Source: an uncultured Candidatus Saccharibacteria bacterium
GTDB taxonomy: Bacteria > Patescibacteriota > Minisyncoccia > Phycocordibacterales > DATDWN01
NCBI GenBank assembly: GCA_964552275.1
Contig: CAZKFS010000001.1
Coordinates: 1-35,433 of the forward strand
Direction of reading: 5' to 3'
DNA length: 35,433 nt
The notes under the pieces were generated by a model. That model searched no databases, was not told where the DNA came from, and saw only the letters and a list, made by a program, of their open reading frames with translations. A program made the position numbers and the translations under genes. Positions 9,936-32,956 of the stretch are shown piece by piece. Every line of letters starts with the position of its first letter. Within the stretch, counting starts at the first letter, position 1.

Positions 9936-9973
9936 AAGACTTAGAGAAATATTTGAGGGGTTAAACTCTTACA

Positions 9974-10032
9974 ATTTGGATGAAATCCGACGTTGAGAAT
10001 TTGAAAATATGAGTTCGCCAAATTTAGGAGTT
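9974..10032 (-). repeat. secY 3'-flank repeat element (two modules shared with the fusA 3' flank)
   Basis: atttggatgaaatccgacgttgagaa (9974-9999) resembles 27131-27157. gagttcgccaaatttaggagtt (10011-10032) resembles 639-660, 14721-14739 and 27223-27233. Confidence 0.7.
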
Positions 10033-13724: not shown

Positions 13725-13843
13725 CAGGATTTTTGTTCGAGTTCAAGGCTCGAGGTTTTGTTTCTGACCAAGCTGTACATTTAGTACTACGCGTGGAGGA
13801 AACAAAACCGAGAACGAAGAAATCGGACAAAAAGACGGTAGAT
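13725..13843 (-). repeat. ~120-nt intergenic element abutting the rpsN stop; homologous to 22088-22208
   Basis: Aligned by eye to the rpsJ 3' flank: shared aggatttttgtt, gaccaa, tgtaca..gtac, aaaaccgagaac and acaaaaagac blocks. Internal perfect 11-bp stem ggttttgtttc (13754-13764) / gaaacaaaacc (13799-13809). Confidence 0.75.
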
Positions 13844-17590: not shown

Positions 17591-18022
17591 TTATTTTGTG
17601 ATTTTCTTAGCTCTTGGTTTTTTTACAGATTTAGCTTCTGCAACTTCTGTAGCTTTAACCTCTTTTACAATCTTTACTTTCTTCTTTGAATCAGCCTCAC
17701 CAAGCTCAACAAAAATAGCTGATGTTCTCTTTCGTATTGGATGAGCAGAACCACGAGCAGCTGGCATTCGTCTGTACATTATTTTTCCACCATCTACTTT
17801 TATAGTTTTAACTATAAGGTTTTCTGTTGGAATATCTTGAGCCTTTGCGTTTGCAAGAGCTGACATAATAAGAGTCTTGATAGGAAGAGAAGCTTTCTTT
17901 GCAACGAAATCTAGGTTTACCAAAACCTCAGAAACTTTCTTTCCTCTCACAGCATTTGCAACCAATCGCATTTTGCGAGGAGCTTGTCTGAAATTTGATA
18001 ATGTTGCTTTTGCTGTTGCCAT
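17591..18022 (-). CDS. rplV: 50S ribosomal protein L22 (Lys-rich C-terminal extension)
   Basis: FRQAPRKMRLVANAVRGKKVSEVLVNLDF. Confidence 0.95.
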   Translation of the reverse strand: MATAKATLSNFRQAPRKMRLVANAVRGKKVSEVLVNLDFVAKKASLPIKTLIMSALANAKAQDIPTENLIVKTIKVDGGKIMYRRMPAARGSAHPIRKRTSAIFVELGEADSKKKVKIVKEVKATEVAEAKSVKKPRAKKITK

Positions 18023-22077: not shown

Positions 22078-22087
22078 GTTTATTTCT

Positions 22088-22208
22088 GAGGATTTTTGTT
22101 GAAGTTCGAAGTTCGCAGTTTTTATGTACGACCAAAATGTACAAAAGTACATTGCGGGAGTAGATAAAACCGAGAACAAAGAAATTCTACAAAAAGACCG
22201 GAAATAAC
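22088..22208 (-). repeat. ~120-nt intergenic element abutting the rpsJ stop; homologous to 13725-13843
   Basis: See the 13725-13843 feature. Inner perfect hairpin aatgtac-aaaa-gtacatt (22136-22153). Outer stem gtttttat / ataaaac at the position equivalent to the 11-bp stem of the other copy. Confidence 0.75.
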
Positions 22209-27038: not shown

Positions 27039-27159
27039 ATGAATATATTGTATCGCTTTTAAAAATACTGCGCAATAAAAAATTGCTAGGTTAAAACAAA
27101 ATTGTCACCAGAACCACCAAAGAAAGTAATTTGATTGGATGAAATGCGACGTGAGAAAA

Positions 27160-27208
27160 CAAAAAACACCCGGAGGTGTACATGTAGTACATTGACGGGT
27201 GTTTTTTG
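27160..27208. terminator. terminator after fusA with a TGTAC-core inner hairpin
   Basis: acacccg (27166-27172) / cgggtgt (27196-27202) encloses gtgtacatgtagtacat and is flanked by A and T runs. Confidence 0.7.
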
Positions 27209-27237
27209 TTTTGGGAACGAGTAGTTCGCCAATAAAA

Positions 27238-29379
27238 TTACTTTCTTGATTCCACTATTGTTTTCTCAATATTTGGTGGCACCACCTCATAATGATCAAA
27301 CTCCATCATTATACTTCCTCTTCCTTGAGTCATTGATCTTATATCTGTTGTATAACCAAACATTTCAGATAGTGGAACTTTTGCGTGAATAACTCGGAGC
27401 ATTCCTCTCTCATCCATACCTTCTATTTGACCACGTTTACCAGAAAGTGAACCTGTTATATCTCCCATGAACTGTTCTGGCATTATAGCTTCAACTTTCA
27501 TAATAGGCTCTAGAATAACTGGCTTTGCTCTCTTGGCTGCGTCTTGGAAAGCTTGCGATGCTGCGATTTTATAAGCGATTTCAGATGAGTCCACGTCGTG
27601 ATAAGAACCAAAAGTAAGTTCACAAGAAATATTTACCATTTTGTATCCAGCGACTATACCTCTATCCATTGCTTCGTGAACACCTTTTTCAACTGCAGGA
27701 ATAAACTCTTGTGGAATAACACCTCCTTTGATTGAATCGATGAATTCGAAGTCTTCATATCGATGAACGTTCTTTGGAATTTTTGCACCTTCTTCCAATT
27801 TCTCTAGAGGTTTGATAGTAAGCTTTACGTGACCGTACTGACCCTTACCTCCAGTTTGTTTTATGTATTTGTGTTCAGCGTCAGCAGATGCCAAGATAGT
27901 TTCTCTGTATGCTACTTGTGGTTTACCGACATTTACTTCCACACCGAACTCTCTTTTCATACGATCCACCATGATTTCAAGATGTAGTTCTCCCATTCCA
28001 GAAATAATACTTTCACCGGTATCAGTGTTTGATGAAATAATGAAAGTTGGATCCTCATCAGAAAGTTTTTTCATGGCCATACCCATTTTCTCTTGGTCAG
28101 CTTTTGTTTTTGGTTCTATTCTTAGAGACACCACTGGATCAACGAACTTGATAGGGTCAAGCAAAATAGGGTTACTCTCATCACAAAATGTATGTGATGT
28201 TTTTGCAGACTTTAGTCCCACAGCTGCTGCTATTTCTCCAGCAAAAACTTTCTTTACCTCTTCACGTTTGTCAGCCTGAAGTCTTACTATACGTCCCAGT
28301 CTTTCTTTTTCACCTGTTGTTGAGTTATATATATATGAACCAGCTTCTATTGTTCCAGAGTAAACTCTAAAGAATGTTAGCTGTCCCACGAATGGATCGT
28401 TTTGAAGTTTGAAAGCAAGAGCAGAAAAAGGCTCAGTATCAGAAGCTTTTCTATAAATTTCTTCGTTTGTTTTTGGATCAAGTCCGTGAACTGGAGGAAT
28501 ATCTAGTGGAGATGGTAGATAATCAACCACGCCATCTAGAACCAACTGAACACCTTTGTTTTTCAAAGCTGAACCAGCAAATACTGGGATGATTTTTACA
28601 GCGAGAGAAGCGGCTCTCAAAGTTGCTTTCAAAACATCGTATGATGGCTCTTTGCCTTCTAGATAACCCGCCATCAAAGCATCGTCTTGCTCAACGATTT
28701 TCTCCACAAGTTCTGCTCGATATTTCTTGGCCTCATCCAAATATTCTGCAGGTATTTCCTCTTCACGAATACTCATACCCATATTTCCTTCGAAATAAAA
28801 GGCTTTCATTTTCATTAGATCGATAACTCCTTCGAACTTATCTTCTAGTCCCATTGGGATTTGCACACGAACTGCATTTTTATTTAGTCGGTCTAGAATA
28901 GATGCGTATGAACGCTCAAAAGATGCTCCTGTTCTATCTAGTTTGTTGATAAAACAAATTCTTGGAACATTTCCATCGTCTGCGTATCTCCAGTTTGTTT
29001 CTGATTGAGGTTCTACACCAGCAACTCCATCGAAAACCACAACCGCACCGTCCAAAACTCTAAGAGATCTTTTCACTTCAGCTGTAAAGTCGATGTGACC
29101 AGGAGTATCGATAACGTTGAAACGATATTCTGGTTTTTGGCCTCTTGGCATATATGTAGGGTTCCAGAAACATGTAATAGCCGCTGCTGTAATAGTGATA
29201 CCACGTTCTCGCTCTTGCTCCATCCAGTCTGTAACTGTTGCACCGTCATGCACCTCACCTATTTTGTGAGTCATTCCTGTGTAGAACAAAACGCGCTCTG
29301 ATGTTGTTGTTTTACCAGCATCAATGTGAGCTATAATACCGAAGTTTCTAACCTTATCTAATGTATAATCGCGGTTCAT
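27238..29379 (-). CDS. fusA: elongation factor G
   Basis: [23 protein letters not shown] motifs; 713 aa. Confidence 0.97.
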
Positions 29380-29545
29380 AAATAATTGATAATTTCTATT
29401 AAGTTAAATAAAAAAGCCCTTAGGCGTCAAGGAAAACTATATACCAAAAGCCCTTTTTGAGCAATGACTATATAATCAATATCTAAGGTGTCAGAAATCA
29501 CCAAACTCGTCGAATCCACAACTTTTTTCATCACCAGCAAGATAC

Positions 29546-32287
29546 CTATTTCTTGTACTTCTTCAAAATGTTAGCTTCGATTTCTGCCCTATCCCCTCCA
29601 TAAGTCATATAGGAAAGTTGTTTTAAGTTTTCAATAATAGCAGGGTTGCCTTTTGGTGCTGGTTCAGCTTTCATATTAAATGCTTTTGCTGGTCTTCCAC
29701 CTACGAGCATTTTTACAATAGCATTGTAGTTATCAATACTCATTATATCTTTAGCGGTAAATACGGGACTGAACTGTTTCTCTAAATACTCAGCATCTTC
29801 TGCTCCAACTCGGTAAGAAATAATAGAGCCCACGTTACCAAACACAGCATCTCGAATGTCATCTTGCAATTGAGCGATAAACTGATGCGCAATATTTAGA
29901 GATAGTTTATATTTTCTAGCTTCAGACAAAATAGTGGCTATAGAATTTGTGGTTATATTTTGAAACTCATCTATATATAGATAAAATGGCGGGAAATCCT
30001 TACCTATTGAATCCACTCTAGAAAGAGCTGCCATCAAAATCTTTCCTACTAGGATAAGACCTATAAGGTTGGCGTTAATATCTCCCAATCTTCCTTTAGA
30101 TAGATTGACCAGAAGAATCTTCTTTTCATCCATTATTTGTCGGAAATTGAAAGATGATTTTTCTTGAGCAATAATAGGTCGCATAATATCGTTAGCCAAA
30201 AACACATCAAATTTTGAAGTTATATATGGAACAATGTTAGCAAGTGACGCCTCCCCTCCAGCTTTTTCTGCAACCTCTGTCCAGAACTGATAAACAACAG
30301 GGTTTTTACATTTCGACAACTTCATCATTCTGAATTCTTTATTTGTCATCACCCTAGAAACATCGAGAAGAGTGCACCCTGAATCTGGATCTTCTATTAC
30401 AAGCATTGTCGCATTACGAAAATACTGTTCAAACATTGGCCCTAGAGATTCTGGCACACCACCATAAAGTTTTTGGAATATGCTAAACAATTCATTGACC
30501 ACAAAAGTTTTTTGTTCTGGGAATCTTGGATCGTACTCCAGCATATTAAGAGCCATCGGTCTGTCTGTATAACTAGGATCAAAATATATAACATCTGTTA
30601 ACCTCTCCTGTGGAATATTCGAGAGTATATCCAAAACATCAGAACCATGAGGATCGATAAAACAAGCACCGAGTCCCGCCTTTATATCCTGAACTATCAT
30701 GTTTTTTAGCAAAGTTGTTTTACCTGTACCAGTTTGTCCGATAGTGTAGGTGTGTCTGAGTCTGTCTTCGTCCTGCATATATATAGGTGTATCGACATTA
30801 CGATAAGAATTCACCCCAAGTCTAGTGCCAGATCCCACCATATCAGATGGGGCTGGCGCAGAAACAGATTGTGTTTGTTTTAGTTGAGGTGTCGGTGAAA
30901 GTGCTGTTGTGTGGAAATGAATCAGGGTTGTAAATTCATGGAGGTTGAGTGGCAAAACCTTTGCGGAATCATAAGTTCTAAAAGAAAAATCTCTTAGCAT
31001 TTTATTTAGAGCACTCTTCTCTAACCTTCTAGGTCTTAGGCCTGTTGAAGCAGAATCAGTGAACTGATTGAAGCTTGATTCCAAACTGGTGAGTATCCTC
31101 TCTGCATCAGGGCGACTTTGTGCCGATGCAACCAGACGAATATTTGTAGCAACAATAGTACTGGATATTTTTTGTTTTATTTTTTGTATTGCCTCACTAT
31201 CGATAGGCTTTTTCTCCTCATCTGGTTTTGGAGCTGATTTAAAGAGAGAAGACAAAGTTTTGCCCAGTTCTCCACCAAAAGTCTCTGGAATATCTATGGC
31301 CTCCTTTGTTGGTATACCTTTTTCTATTTTTTCAATAGCGTATTCATATTTTTTATTATAATAATCACCTCTTGGAGAGAAAATTATTTGAATACCGGCT
31401 CCCTCCCCCTCTTTTTGTATTTTAGAAAAACTATTCAATATAACGTTGAGTGGATCATGATCAAAAGACTCATATGTTTTTATTTGATAGATAGGATTGT
31501 TACTAGATTCTAGATATGAACCTATAGAAACTCCGTCACTGTTAAAAATATTGTAGTCCGAAGTAGTTTCAGTTAACTTGGCGTTGTGAAAAACTGATAT
31601 CATCTGTCTCTCAAACAAATCTTTGTGTAGGTTAGGTACGGCAACATAGAAAACAAACTGGTCGCTTCCGTTTGGGTTAGCGATCTCGAGAACAATATAA
31701 TTCTCTCTATAATTCTTCGTACTATCTTTTGACACAACCGAAAGCATGCCGGCCAAAAACTGCTCCATACTCGAAACCACCTCCTTTAGACTCTTTGTTT
31801 TTTCTTGACCTTTGTCTTCAGGCAAAATCACCTCGTACAATGCCATGTCGAGACCCATGAATTCCTTACTCCTCACATCAATATCTTTACCCTTATAACC
31901 ATTTTTTAAGTATTGAACTAAGAATCTATGAAAATCGTCTTCTAGGTGAGGATCTTTGAAACCGGATATAACTGACATTGTGTTTTTTATACCATTTTCG
32001 TTTAGAACAACGAGAAGTTCTGTCATCTTTTTATCGTGAGTTTCTGGAGCAAGGTTTAATATAATAGTCTCAGCGTCATGTTTAGCTATTGCATAAGTCT
32101 CATCTAAAACCTCCTTTGGTAACACATCCCTATAACGAGATATTTCTTCTCCTACAACTTGATCAAGTTTTACATCAAAACTCTTTTCTCTATACTCTGC
32201 TTCTTTTTGGGAAATCTTTTCTCTCAGAAAAGCGATTTCTTGTTCTGGGCTAGTAAACTGAGGTAGTGTCTCTGCATTTTTTTCCAT
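29546..32287 (-). CDS. TraD/VirD4 (type IV coupling protein)-like or HerA/FtsK-superfamily P-loop ATPase with a large unassigned N-terminal domain
   Basis: Walker A GQTGTGKTT, then FIDPHGSD. Walker B LYIDEFQN. ARKYKLSLNIAHQFIAQL. No obvious TM helix in the first ~480 aa. Confidence 0.65.
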   Translation of the reverse strand: MEKNAETLPQFTSPEQEIAFLREKISQKEAEYREKSFDVKLDQVVGEEISRYRDVLPKEVLDETYAIAKHDAETIILNLAPETHDKKMTELLVVLNENGIKNTMSVISGFKDPHLEDDFHRFLVQYLKNGYKGKDIDVRSKEFMGLDMALYEVILPEDKGQEKTKSLKEVVSSMEQFLAGMLSVVSKDSTKNYRENYIVLEIANPNGSDQFVFYVAVPNLHKDLFERQMISVFHNAKLTETTSDYNIFNSDGVSIGSYLESSNNPIYQIKTYESFDHDPLNVILNSFSKIQKEGEGAGIQIIFSPRGDYYNKKYEYAIEKIEKGIPTKEAIDIPETFGGELGKTLSSLFKSAPKPDEEKKPIDSEAIQKIKQKISSTIVATNIRLVASAQSRPDAERILTSLESSFNQFTDSASTGLRPRRLEKSALNKMLRDFSFRTYDSAKVLPLNLHEFTTLIHFHTTALSPTPQLKQTQSVSAPAPSDMVGSGTRLGVNSYRNVDTPIYMQDEDRLRHTYTIGQTGTGKTTLLKNMIVQDIKAGLGACFIDPHGSDVLDILSNIPQERLTDVIYFDPSYTDRPMALNMLEYDPRFPEQKTFVVNELFSIFQKLYGGVPESLGPMFEQYFRNATMLVIEDPDSGCTLLDVSRVMTNKEFRMMKLSKCKNPVVYQFWTEVAEKAGGEASLANIVPYITSKFDVFLANDIMRPIIAQEKSSFNFRQIMDEKKILLVNLSKGRLGDINANLIGLILVGKILMAALSRVDSIGKDFPPFYLYIDEFQNITTNSIATILSEARKYKLSLNIAHQFIAQLQDDIRDAVFGNVGSIISYRVGAEDAEYLEKQFSPVFTAKDIMSIDNYNAIVKMLVGGRPAKAFNMKAEPAPKGNPAIIENLKQLSYMTYGGDRAEIEANILKKYKK

Positions 32288-32331
32288 GAGTTTATTATAT
32301 ACGATTGATTAAACAGTGGCTATTTATATAT

Positions 32332-32374
32332 TGTTATATTCACTTTGCATGGTAACAAAAATCCCCTTTCGGGG
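32332..32374. repeat. 43-nt perfect direct repeat, copy 1
   Basis: tgttatattcactttgcatggtaacaaaaatcccctttcgggg is identical to 32430-32472. Confidence 0.9.
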
Positions 32375-32429
32375 GAAATTCGTCCCGGAAGAAAAATTAA
32401 TGAAGTAATTTTTCTTACCGACCAAGCAC

Positions 32430-32472
32430 TGTTATATTCACTTTGCATGGTAACAAAAATCCCCTTTCGGGG
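32430..32472. repeat. 43-nt perfect direct repeat, copy 2 (forms the left arm of the rpsG hairpin)
   Basis: Compared character by character with 32332-32374. Confidence 0.9.
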
Positions 32473-32494
32473 ATTTTTGTTACCATGCAAAGTG
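32439..32494 (-). terminator. perfect 26-bp hairpin incorporating the last four codons and the stop codon of rpsG
   Basis: cactttgcatggtaacaaaaatcccc - tttc - ggggatttttgttaccatgcaaagtg. On the RNA the loop is GAAA. Confidence 0.7.
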
Positions 32495-32956
32495 AGCGAA
32501 GGCCTTGTTTGCCTCAGCCATCTTGTGAGTATCCTCTCTTTTCTTTACTGCCTTACCCTCGTTTTTAGCTGCTAGGATGATTTCATCTGCAAGTCTAGAA
32601 GCCATAGGAGCGCCTTTGCCTTCTCTGGCAGCCTCAATAATCCACTTCATAGACAAGAAAGATCTTCTCTCTGGTCTAACCTCTCTAGGAATCTGATAGT
32701 TAGCACCTCCAACTCTTCGTGATCGAACTTCTGTAATAGGACCTGTATTTTTCATCGCAGTATCGAAAACCTCCATTGGATCTACTACCGTAGCTCCGCC
32801 TTTTGTCTTAATGATCTCAAGGGCCTCATAAACAATACCTCTAGCTGTCTCCTTTTGACCACGTAGCATTACGTAGTTAATAAATTTACCAATCTTCTCT
32901 GAGTTGAAGACATGATCTGGACCTACTATGTTTCTGTTAGTTACTTTTCTTCGCAT
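32480..32956 (-). CDS. rpsG: 30S ribosomal protein S7
   Basis: MRRKVTNRNIVGPD..., KFINYVMLRGQKETA. Confidence 0.95.
   Translation of the reverse strand: MRRKVTNRNIVGPDHVFNSEKIGKFINYVMLRGQKETARGIVYEALEIIKTKGGATVVDPMEVFDTAMKNTGPITEVRSRRVGGANYQIPREVRPERRSFLSMKWIIEAAREGKGAPMASRLADEIILAAKNEGKAVKKREDTHKMAEANKAFAHFAW

What the first reader, a model, noticed from the sequence alone, without database searches (positions are those of the whole stretch)
32332..32494. Perfect 26-bp hairpin built from the rpsG coding end, plus a perfect 43-nt duplication of its other arm
The last four S7 codons (H-F-A-W), the TAA stop and 11 nt of 3' UTR (32469-32494) pair perfectly with 32439-32464. This gives 26 bp with a GAAA loop on the RNA.
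The distal arm and its flank (43 nt, 32430-32472) are repeated with 100% identity 98 nt further along the transcript (32332-32374). In that copy only the short CCCC-GAAA-GGGG hairpin is retained.
The 56-nt spacer contains another perfect 10-bp hairpin, agaaaaatta/taatttttct (32390-32415).
On the mRNA the rpsG end can therefore pair with either copy. These mutually exclusive structures sit between rpsG and the unusual ATPase gene, so this could be an attenuator controlling read-through or a translational coupling device.
The perfect identity indicates a very recent duplication or ongoing conversion, perhaps a scar of the ATPase insertion.
Basis: seen in the sequence. Interest (0 to 1): 0.6.

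Follow-up and report, generated by a model that had tools for sequence, protein, structure and literature searches.

The report
rpsG terminator hairpin with duplicated arm
The long perfect hairpin at the end of the ribosomal protein S7 gene is this lineage's normal transcription stop signal, and the perfect second copy of one arm is most likely a scar left where an ATPase gene moved in next to it, not a regulatory switch.

Summary
There is a 27-bp perfect hairpin (32438-32464 with 32469-32495), a 43-nt perfect direct repeat (32332-32374 = 32430-32472) and an 11-bp hairpin in the 55-nt spacer.

It is probably not an assembly artefact. A second public assembly is identical across it. Logan k=31 contigs from several sequencing runs stop and start exactly where a true repeat predicts.

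The hairpin is the intrinsic terminator of rpsL-rpsG. The genome has 41 perfect hairpins of at least 14 bp, nearly all of this A-run/GC-core/T-run form. In 12 related lineages the rpsG terminator also uses the last S7 codons and the stop codon as its lower stem, with compensated synonymous changes.

The spacer hairpin is a conserved structured module that follows this terminator in 8 lineages.

The second repeat copy is found only in this species. It lies exactly where homology to relatives ends and a relocated TraG-like ATPase gene, with its own promoter, begins. It keeps a weak terminator.

The two pairings are nearly isoenergetic, but the competing arm is transcribed 98 nt after the terminator. 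The attenuator reading is therefore not supported.

The parts
32480..32956 (-). rpsG (ribosomal protein S7, 158 aa). Its last 13 coding nt plus TAA form part of the hairpin's 5' arm.
   Evidence: ORF list. Pfam Ribosomal_S7, E = 9e-55.
32469..32495 (-). Arm A: the 5' arm of terminator T1 on the RNA (UCACUUUGCAUGGUAACAAAAAUCCCC). It comprises the CDS end, the stop codon and 11 nt.
   Evidence: Inverted repeat I2, 27 nt, 100% complementary. Folded in the MFE structure.
32438..32464 (-). Arm A'1: the 3' arm of T1 (GGGGAUUUUUGUUACCAUGCAAAGUGA). The loop GAAA lies at 32465-32468. The core AAAAAUCCCC-GAAA-GGGGAUUUUU is an A-tract/U-tract intrinsic terminator.
   Evidence: core -15.8, full stem -46.6 kcal/mol. 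Same architecture as almost all of the genome's 41 perfect hairpins. Conserved in 12 relatives.
32430..32472 (-). X1: the ancestral copy of the 43-nt repeat. On the RNA it reads CCCC-GAAA-A'-AUAUAACA. It is contiguous with the spacer, as in relatives.
   Evidence: Direct repeat D1. The contiguous block of terminator 3' arm, flank and spacer hairpin is present in G017, G016 and L068-L073.
32375..32429 (-). Spacer Y: a conserved structured hairpin. Stem 32406-32416 with 32389-32399; basal UCGG/CCGG at 32418-32421 with 32385-32388.
   Evidence: I11; -14.2 kcal/mol. In an 8-lineage alignment 97.7% of cells are paired and 4 pairs are compensated. It precedes the 3' half of the genome's multi-copy ~125-nt repeat in 5 relatives.
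32332..32374 (-). X2: the derived second copy of the 43-nt repeat. It keeps only a 4-5-bp CCCC-GAAA-GGGG hairpin followed by AUUUUUG, which is a weak terminator (T2, about 32352-32377).
   Evidence: Flagged as terminator-like at 32377-32362. Hairpin energy -8.1 kcal/mol. Absent from all relatives.
32294..32322 (-). The ATPase gene's own sigma-70-type promoter, TAGCCA-17-TATAAT, immediately 3' of X2.
   Evidence: The -10 region and leader are homologous to the upstream regions of ATPase orthologues at other loci.
29546..32287 (-). 913-aa TraG-D_C / DUF8128 ATPase gene, relocated into the rpsG-fusA gap in this species.
   Evidence: Pfam. Orthologues in 11 closest species have neither rpsG nor fusA within 1.5 kb.
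29436..29463 (-). fusA's own promoter (TTGCTC-16-TATAGT). It marks the right-hand limit of the variable gap.
   Evidence: Sequence. The same motif lies upstream of fusA in relatives with 78-186-nt gaps.

Best explanation
The 27-bp hairpin is the Rho-independent terminator (T1) of the rpsL-rpsG unit in a Candidatus Zambryskibacteria (Parcubacteria/CPR) genome. Its core is an A-tract/GC/GNRA-loop/GC/U-tract terminator. Its lower stem is formed by the last S7 codons plus the stop codon, pairing with a conserved non-coding complement (TTACCATGCAAAGT...).

This design is inherited within the genus. The non-coding arm is kept matched to the coding arm, either by selection or by replication template switching that perfects quasi-palindromes.

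The 55-nt spacer is a conserved structured hairpin that ancestrally follows T1.

The second 43-nt copy (X2) is a species-specific junction duplication. It arose when the TraG-like ATPase cassette, with its own promoter, replaced the ancestral sequence downstream of the spacer. Most likely this was a templated insertion or template switch that copied from the nearby hairpin tip.

X2 retains only a weak terminator. At most it acts as a back-up stop in front of the ATPase promoter.

Shown: the anatomy, the conservation, the uniqueness of X2 and its position at the junction. Inferred: termination activity, the template-switch origin and any back-up role.
For: - The genome holds 41 perfect hairpins of at least 14 bp, nearly all of this form. 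In 16 of them an ORF stop lies inside the stem. The rpsG hairpin is the second longest.
- In 12 of 13 related lineages with a hairpin after rpsG, the stem includes at least 9 nt of CDS plus stop (14 or more in 11 of them).
- Whole-hairpin alignment of 6 genomes: 93.7% of cells paired, 8 compensated pairs, 0 of 500 shuffles as good.
- CDS-overlap stem in 12 lineages: 76.9% paired against 23-38% when the partner is slid. His CAC/CAT is matched by G/A and Ala GCA/GCT by T/A.
- The next genes have their own promoters.
- The spacer hairpin is conserved and compensated in 8 lineages and always contiguous with T1.
- No relative has a second A' copy.
- After the spacer, relatives carry the 3' half of the ~125-nt repeat or the fusA promoter. 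The window instead carries X2 and the ATPase promoter.
- ATPase orthologues lie at other loci.
- A parallel exists in the same genome: a 45-nt perfect, terminator-bearing direct repeat flanks a 137-aa cargo gene on contig C2.
- Template switching is documented to create and maintain perfect hairpins (PMC8794818).
Against: - Termination is therefore inferred from sequence alone.
- Covariation in the CDS-overlap stem is modest: 2 compensated pairs, and 227 of 500 shuffles reach that count. Two lineages carry uncompensated synonymous changes.
- The ATPase cassette lies after X2, not between the repeats, so the C2 parallel is imperfect. No clear microhomology was found at either X2 boundary.
- In G016 a complete terminator resembling other species' rpsG terminator also follows the spacer hairpin. 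A terminator after the spacer may therefore be favoured and not a pure accident.
- 43 of 43 identity only bounds the age loosely.
Confidence: 0.6

Rival explanations
1. X2 is a selected fail-safe terminator. T1's 5' arm starts inside the CDS, so a ribosome terminating at UAA covers it and can block hairpin formation when transcription and translation are tightly coupled. T2, 98 nt further on and out of the ribosome's reach, would then stop the polymerases that escape. This would insulate the ATPase promoter.
For: - X2 keeps exactly the minimal terminator, CCCC-GAAA-GGGG plus U5, and is flagged as terminator-like.
- In E. coli, terminators a few bp after a stop codon are almost fully repressed by translating ribosomes (PMC4824070).
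- G016 also has a terminator after the spacer hairpin.
Against: - T2 is weak: -8.1 kcal/mol with a 4-bp stem.
- The other relatives examined manage without a T1 copy after the spacer.
- The copied 27-nt arm and 8-nt flank are not needed for a terminator.
Confidence: 0.15
2. The rpsG end pairs alternately with A'1 or A'2, and the choice controls read-through into the ATPase gene or mRNA stability. It would be an attenuator-like riboregulator.
For: The two conformers are nearly isoenergetic: ensemble -98.9 against -98.2 kcal/mol, ratio about 3:1.
Against: - A'2 is made 98 nt after T1's U-tract, so it cannot compete during the termination decision.
- There is no leader peptide, aptamer or Rfam hit.
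- X2 is not conserved in any relative.
- The ATPase has its own promoter.
- Exchange between two 27-bp helices without a toehold is kinetically slow.
Confidence: 0.06
3. A:A'2 recreates the outer helix of the genome's ~125-nt stop-codon-hugging repeat. That repeat has an outer stem starting at the stop codon, enclosing an inner hairpin. After the ATPase cassette removed the element's 3' half, the duplication restored a closing strand. X-Y-X would then be a functional variant of that element.
For: - Canonical copies pair the gene end with a strand about 110 nt downstream. The copy after fusA uses AGA-AAG-TAA in its outer stem.
- The spacer hairpin sits where the element's inner hairpin sits, in front of the element's 3' half, in 5 relatives.
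- A:A'2 spans 102 nt.
Against: - The profile of the repeat family gives no hit in 29380-32500.
- The function of the family is unknown.
- The adjacent A'1 will win kinetically.
- X2 starts inside the hairpin tip, which looks like a breakpoint and not a designed strand.
Confidence: 0.08
4. The duplication is an assembly or scaffolding artefact, or a chimera of two strain variants.
For: - This is a metagenome-assembled genome.
- The same assembly contains one clear scaffolding artefact: a 55-nt duplication flanking a 100-N gap on contig C6.
- Palindromes can confuse assemblers.
Against: - There are no Ns in this region.
- An identical sequence occurs in a second assembly on a 167-kb contig.
- Logan k=31 contig ends in at least 5 runs match the two-context prediction exactly, and the hairpin alone causes no break.
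Confidence: 0.04

Closest known systems
Rho-independent (intrinsic) bidirectional-type terminators with paired A- and U-tracts
   Same: GC core, GNRA tetraloop and a U-run after the core. It lies at the end of a transcription unit, and the next genes have their own promoters. About 40 hairpins in the same genome share the architecture.
   Different: The stem is far longer (27 bp, perfect). It extends 16 nt into the CDS and stop codon, and this coding overlap is conserved across a genus.
Quasi-palindrome template-switch mutation (Ripley/Lovett model; Monttinen and Loytynoja 2022, PMC8794818)
   Same: It creates reverse-complement copies of flanking sequence and perfects existing stems in single events. 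That would explain why the non-coding arm tracks synonymous changes in the coding arm. It would also explain why the outer 7 bp are perfect only in this species.
   Different: This is inferred only; no ancestral reconstruction was done. The direct (not inverted) 43-nt copy needs a further, longer-range switch or a templated insertion.
Tandem or clustered terminators (for example PMC8355165) and ribosome interference with stop-proximal terminators (PMC4824070)
   Same: Three successive hairpins follow the stop codon: T1, the spacer hairpin and T2. The first begins inside the ribosome footprint.
   Different: The second terminator here is a truncated exact copy of the first, found in one species only. 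No activity data exist.
Transcription attenuators (trp-type, T-box, riboswitch expression platforms)
   Same: Mutually exclusive helices that share one strand and have similar stability.
   Different: The competitor lies downstream of the terminator, not upstream. There is no sensor and no conservation, and the regulated gene has its own promoter.
REP/BIME/REPIN-like and 'stop-codon-hugging' hairpin repeat families noted earlier in Patescibacteria by this scan
   Same: The window genome carries at least 15 copies of a 121-128-nt repeat that starts at stop codons. The spacer hairpin occupies the position of that repeat's inner hairpin.
   Different: The finding itself (T1 and X2) is single-copy in the genome and is not detected by the family profile.

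Membership tests
Intrinsic (Rho-independent) terminator | Stable GC-containing stem with a 3-8-nt loop | tested here: met
   The core AAAAAUCCCC-GAAA-GGGGAUUUUU folds at -15.8 kcal/mol and the full stem at -46.6.
Intrinsic (Rho-independent) terminator | U-tract directly 3' of the GC core | tested here: met
   GGGG is followed by AUUUUUG. The U-run also pairs with the A-run, as in almost all of the genome's 41 perfect hairpins of at least 14 bp.
Intrinsic (Rho-independent) terminator | Placed at the end of a transcription unit, with downstream genes separately promoted | tested here: met
   ATPase promoter TAGCCA-17-TATAAT. The fusA promoter is conserved in relatives.
Intrinsic (Rho-independent) terminator | RNA 3' ends map to the U-tract | not testable with these tools
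Transcription attenuator / riboregulator | The alternative helix can form before the terminator decision, so the competitor lies upstream of or within the terminator | tested here: not met
   A'2 (32340-32366) lies 98 nt downstream of A'1 on the transcript.
Transcription attenuator / riboregulator | A sensor: leader peptide, aptamer, or tRNA- or protein-binding element | tested here: not met
   No Rfam family reaches its gathering score. Only sub-threshold matches, far below each family's gathering score, appear at E up to 10.
Transcription attenuator / riboregulator | Both alternative structures conserved in relatives | tested here: not met
   There is no second A' copy in any of the related loci examined.
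Mobile-element insertion with target-site duplication (X as the duplication, spacer as the element) | The sequence between the repeats is absent from empty sites in relatives | tested here: not met
   The spacer hairpin is contiguous with the terminator in 8 lineages that lack X2.
The genome's 121-128-nt stop-codon repeat family | Match to the family sequence profile | tested here: not met
   nhmmer finds at least 15 copies in the genome but none in 29380-32500 at E up to 1.
The genome's 121-128-nt stop-codon repeat family | Positional homology of the spacer hairpin to the family's inner hairpin | tested here: inconclusive
   In G017, L068, L072 and L073 (degenerate in L070) the spacer hairpin is followed by the family's 3' half, TTTTATACGCGACCTT plus the closing strand. 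The shared basal motif TGGTC(C/G)GT...TCCGG was judged by eye only.

The most novel reading that the evidence does not exclude
Terminator palindromes in these ultra-small genomes may be active recombinogenic sites. Replication template switching at the hairpin would keep the non-coding arm matched to the coding arm, which would explain perfect 20-30-bp stems that track synonymous changes. Longer-range switches from the hairpin tip would capture or relocate gene cassettes and leave duplicated terminator pieces such as X2. This would make the terminators themselves the cause of the cargo hot spots between ribosomal-protein units.
Probability: 0.15. Interest if true: 0.55.

Novelty: new member of a known kind. 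Interest (0 to 1): 0.28.

Why it matters
In itself this is an ordinary terminator plus a rearrangement scar, so it does not reveal a new regulatory device.

It is useful in three ways:
- It dates and delimits the relocation of the TraG-like ATPase gene into the normally invariant rpsG-fusA junction.
- It shows that in a CPR genus the S7 gene's last codons are under a dual constraint, coding and terminator stem.
- It gives a clean natural example for asking whether perfect long terminator palindromes are maintained by selection or by template-switch mutation, and whether they seed the gene-cargo hot spots inside ribosomal-protein clusters.

Tried and rejected
- Rfam, at gathering scores on the window plus 13 related loci and at permissive E-values on 32200-32600 and on a relative's element, gave nothing credible.
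- A loose spacer-hairpin pattern searched in 250 order-level genomes gave chance-level hits only, about as many as the reversed control. This was a poor use of the budget, because the draw left out the genus itself.
- The sequence profile of the ~125-nt repeat family does not hit the finding. I therefore do not file the spacer as a family member.
- The target-site-duplication model was rejected because the spacer is ancestral next to the terminator.
- I looked for direct repeats bounding the ATPase cassette. There is no further copy of the 27-mer within 3 mismatches in the window.
- An artefact from the palindrome alone was rejected by the k=31 graph simulation.
- A promoter role for the flank and spacer was considered. 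The -10-like hexamers are not conserved across the 8 lineages (alignment, judged by eye).

Full report
**Anatomy**

All genes in this stretch lie on the minus strand. They are rpsL 33491-33036, rpsG 32956-32480, a 913-aa TraG-D_C/DUF8128 ATPase 32287-29546, and fusA 29379-27238.

Read along the transcript, the region runs in this order:
- rpsG ends ...GCU CAC UUU GCA UGG UAA.
- Arm A (UCACUUUGCAUGGUAACAAAAAUCCCC), loop GAAA, arm A'1 (GGGGAUUUUUGUUACCAUGCAAAGUGA), flank AUAUAACA.
- A 55-nt spacer, Y, with its own hairpin.
- CCCC-GAAA-A'2-AUAUAACA, which is the second copy, X2.
- 44 nt carrying a TAGCCA-17-TATAAT promoter, then the ATPase start codon.

The stem is 27 bp, not 26. The spacer is 55 nt. 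Its hairpin is 11 bp. Shuffles give no match to the 27-mer. The fold has z = -10.4. The element is unique in the 642-kb, 37.5% G+C genome.

**Real or artefact**

- A second public assembly (GCA_021733565.1, a 167-kb contig) is identical over the 6954 nt it shares with the window, including X-Y-X.
- Logan contigs (k=31) from four runs that carry rpsG all end 37 nt after the stop.
- Logan contigs from three runs that carry the ATPase gene all begin at TTTTTGTTACC....
- A k=31 de Bruijn simulation of the window sequence reproduces exactly these ends. They are the points where the 43-mer gains a second predecessor and a second successor.
- With the duplication removed, the graph has no break. The hairpin alone cannot explain the ends.

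The same assembly does contain one scaffolding artefact: a 55-nt duplication around 100 Ns on contig C6. The site studied here contains no Ns. I put the artefact reading at about 4%.

**What the hairpin is**

The genome contains 41 perfect hairpins with stems of at least 14 bp. Nearly all have the form A-run, GC core, short loop, GC core, T-run, and sit at gene ends. In 16 of them an ORF stop lies inside the stem. The rpsG hairpin is the second longest and has the deepest coding overlap among those of terminator form. The ATPase gene and fusA have their own promoters, and the fusA promoter is conserved in relatives whose rpsG-fusA gap is only 78-186 nt. The hairpin is therefore the intrinsic terminator, T1, of rpsL-rpsG.

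The coding overlap is inherited and is not a peculiarity of this genome.
- In 12 of 13 related lineages with a hairpin after rpsG, the predicted stem includes at least 9 nt of CDS plus stop, and 14 or more in 11 of them.
- The terminator core has diverged completely between species, yet it stays palindromic. In the 6-genome alignment 93.7% of cells are paired, 8 pairs are compensated and 0 of 500 shuffles do as well.
- The non-coding complement TTACCATGCAAA(A/G)T is conserved.
- Within the overlap, His CAC/CAT is matched by G/A and Ala GCA/GCT by T/A. Two lineages carry uncompensated synonymous changes. Overall 76.9% of cells are paired, against 23-38% for slid controls. This covariation is real but modest.
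- The outermost 7 bp (UCACUUU/AAAGUGA) are perfect only in this species.

This pattern fits selection for pairing. It fits equally the documented ability of replication template switching to create and repair perfect stems (PMC8794818). I cannot separate the two.

**What the spacer is**

The spacer hairpin has homologues only within this genus-level group, Candidatus Zambryskibacteria by the record titles. These are two species genomes and six metagenome contigs, two of them identical here. An order-wide pattern search gave only chance-level hits.

In every case but one the block of terminator 3' arm, flank and spacer hairpin is contiguous and directly follows rpsG. The exception is G016, where the block lies about 1.7 kb downstream, behind a decayed arm copy. 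The hairpin is 97.7% paired across 8 lineages, with 4 compensated pairs and an invariant basal U-G.

In five lineages it is followed by the 3' half (TTTTATACGCGACCTT plus a closing strand) of a 121-128-nt structured repeat. In the others:
- L069 and L071 have the fusA promoter directly after it.
- G016 has a complete terminator after it.

That repeat has these properties:
- It starts at stop codons.
- It has at least 15 copies in this genome, three of them full-length in the window.
- It matches no Rfam family.

The spacer therefore sits where that repeat's inner hairpin sits. However, the family profile does not detect it, so I leave membership open.

**What the second copy is**

No relative has a second A' copy. 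In the window, similarity to relatives ends a few bases after the spacer hairpin (...CCGGGACGAATTT). X2 begins there, four bases before the loop, and it is followed at once by the ATPase gene's native promoter region. That promoter region is recognisably homologous to the upstream regions of ATPase orthologues, which lie at other, varied loci in the 11 closest species.

The rpsG-fusA gap is hypervariable in the genus, from 78 nt to more than 4.5 kb with different cargo. This agrees with earlier notes that gaps between ribosomal-protein units are cargo hot spots.

X2 is therefore best read as a junction duplication made when the ATPase cassette replaced the ancestral downstream sequence. A templated insertion or template switch starting at the tip of the nearby hairpin would produce exactly a copy that begins near the loop. 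This step is inference. A partial parallel exists on contig C2, where a 45-nt perfect, terminator-bearing direct repeat flanks a 137-aa cargo gene.

**Does the alternative pairing matter?**

Ensembles constrained to A:A'1 and to A:A'2 differ by only 0.7 kcal/mol.

Kinetically A'1 is adjacent and is made first. A'2 appears 98 nt after T1's U-tract, so it cannot influence T1. There is no sensor and no conservation. X2 keeps a minimal terminator (-8.1 kcal/mol, flagged). T1's 5' arm lies within the footprint of a ribosome stopped at UAA, and stop-proximal terminators are repressed by ribosomes in E. coli (PMC4824070). A fail-safe role for X2 is therefore conceivable, at about 15%. One other lineage, G016, also has a terminator after the spacer.

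**Verdict**

The scar reading is supported and the attenuator reading is not.

This is a new member of a known kind: an unusually long, CDS-embedded intrinsic terminator with a rearrangement scar. Interest is low to moderate. The wider questions deserve more attention than this locus alone. They are how perfect terminator palindromes are maintained, and whether they seed cargo hot spots.

Noticed in passing
window 27133-27238, 13725-13836, 22083-22199 (minus strand); partial copies at 621-658 and 9966-10011; also own-genome contigs C7, C17, C31, C8, C40, C2, C46, C35, C3, C27: A 121-128-nt structured repeat with at least 15 copies in the 642-kb genome. It starts at or overlaps stop codons; the fusA copy uses AGA-AAG-TAA in its outer stem. 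It has conserved single-stranded joints (CAATCTCATCGTCTAAAAT and TTTTATACGCGACCTTG, or a second subtype) and an inner hairpin in which 14 of 17 pairs are compensated. No Rfam match. In most genus relatives a copy directly follows the rpsG stop.
   Followed up: partly
own genome C2:17175-17219 and 17723-17767: A perfect 45-nt direct repeat that contains a terminator (GGAGCC..GGCTCC..GAGGCTTTTTTGTTT). It flanks a promoter plus a 137-aa membrane-protein gene. This looks like a cargo insertion that duplicated the upstream gene's terminator.
   Followed up: partly
own genome C6:23672-23881: A 55-nt exact duplication on both sides of a run of 100 N, inside a DNA polymerase III gamma/tau-like ORF. 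This is an unmerged scaffold overlap, that is, an assembly artefact.
   Followed up: yes
own genome C8:18272-18313, C22:9527-9569, C37:2691-2731, C10:1070-1104: A second hairpin family with a constant stem, AAACGGCTCA(N3-5)TGAGCCGTTT, and variable flanks. Two copies overlap ORF ends by 23-27 nt.
   Followed up: no
relatives L030, L034, L035, L039, L040 (about 150-250 nt after the rpsG stop): A conserved promoter-like module, CCTTG(C/T)...GGGGGGG(G)TAAAAT, with a long G-run just before the -10 box. It precedes different cargo genes in the rpsG-fusA gap.
   Followed up: no
relatives L032, L033, L037, L040, L042, L045 (between cargo and fusA, on the opposite strand): Repeated ORFs of about 70-100 aa, on the strand opposite rpsG/fusA, appear to share a loose motif by eye (for example ...G.F.L.PP...H..SG..V.V..I...). 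L032 has several copies. This may be a small-protein family linked to this hot spot.
   Followed up: no
loci L005-L012, L015 (3' flanks of ATPase orthologues in relatives): In most relatives the ATPase orthologue is followed immediately by sequence that is strikingly G+C-rich and looks foreign. Its upstream neighbour differs between species (by eye AlkD-like, HhH-GPD-like, DgkA-like; not checked by search). The ATPase gene itself seems to sit next to variable DNA and to change location often.
   Followed up: no
locus L029 (G016), about 1.6-1.85 kb downstream of rpsG: A decayed second copy of the rpsG-complementary arm (TTGCTATGAAAAAT) lies in front of the spacer-hairpin homologue. It is followed by a complete terminator nearly identical to the rpsG terminator of other species (AAAAGGCCCTTCGGGGCTTTTTT). 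About 1.7 kb of cargo appears to have been inserted between rpsG and its old terminator arm.
   Followed up: partly
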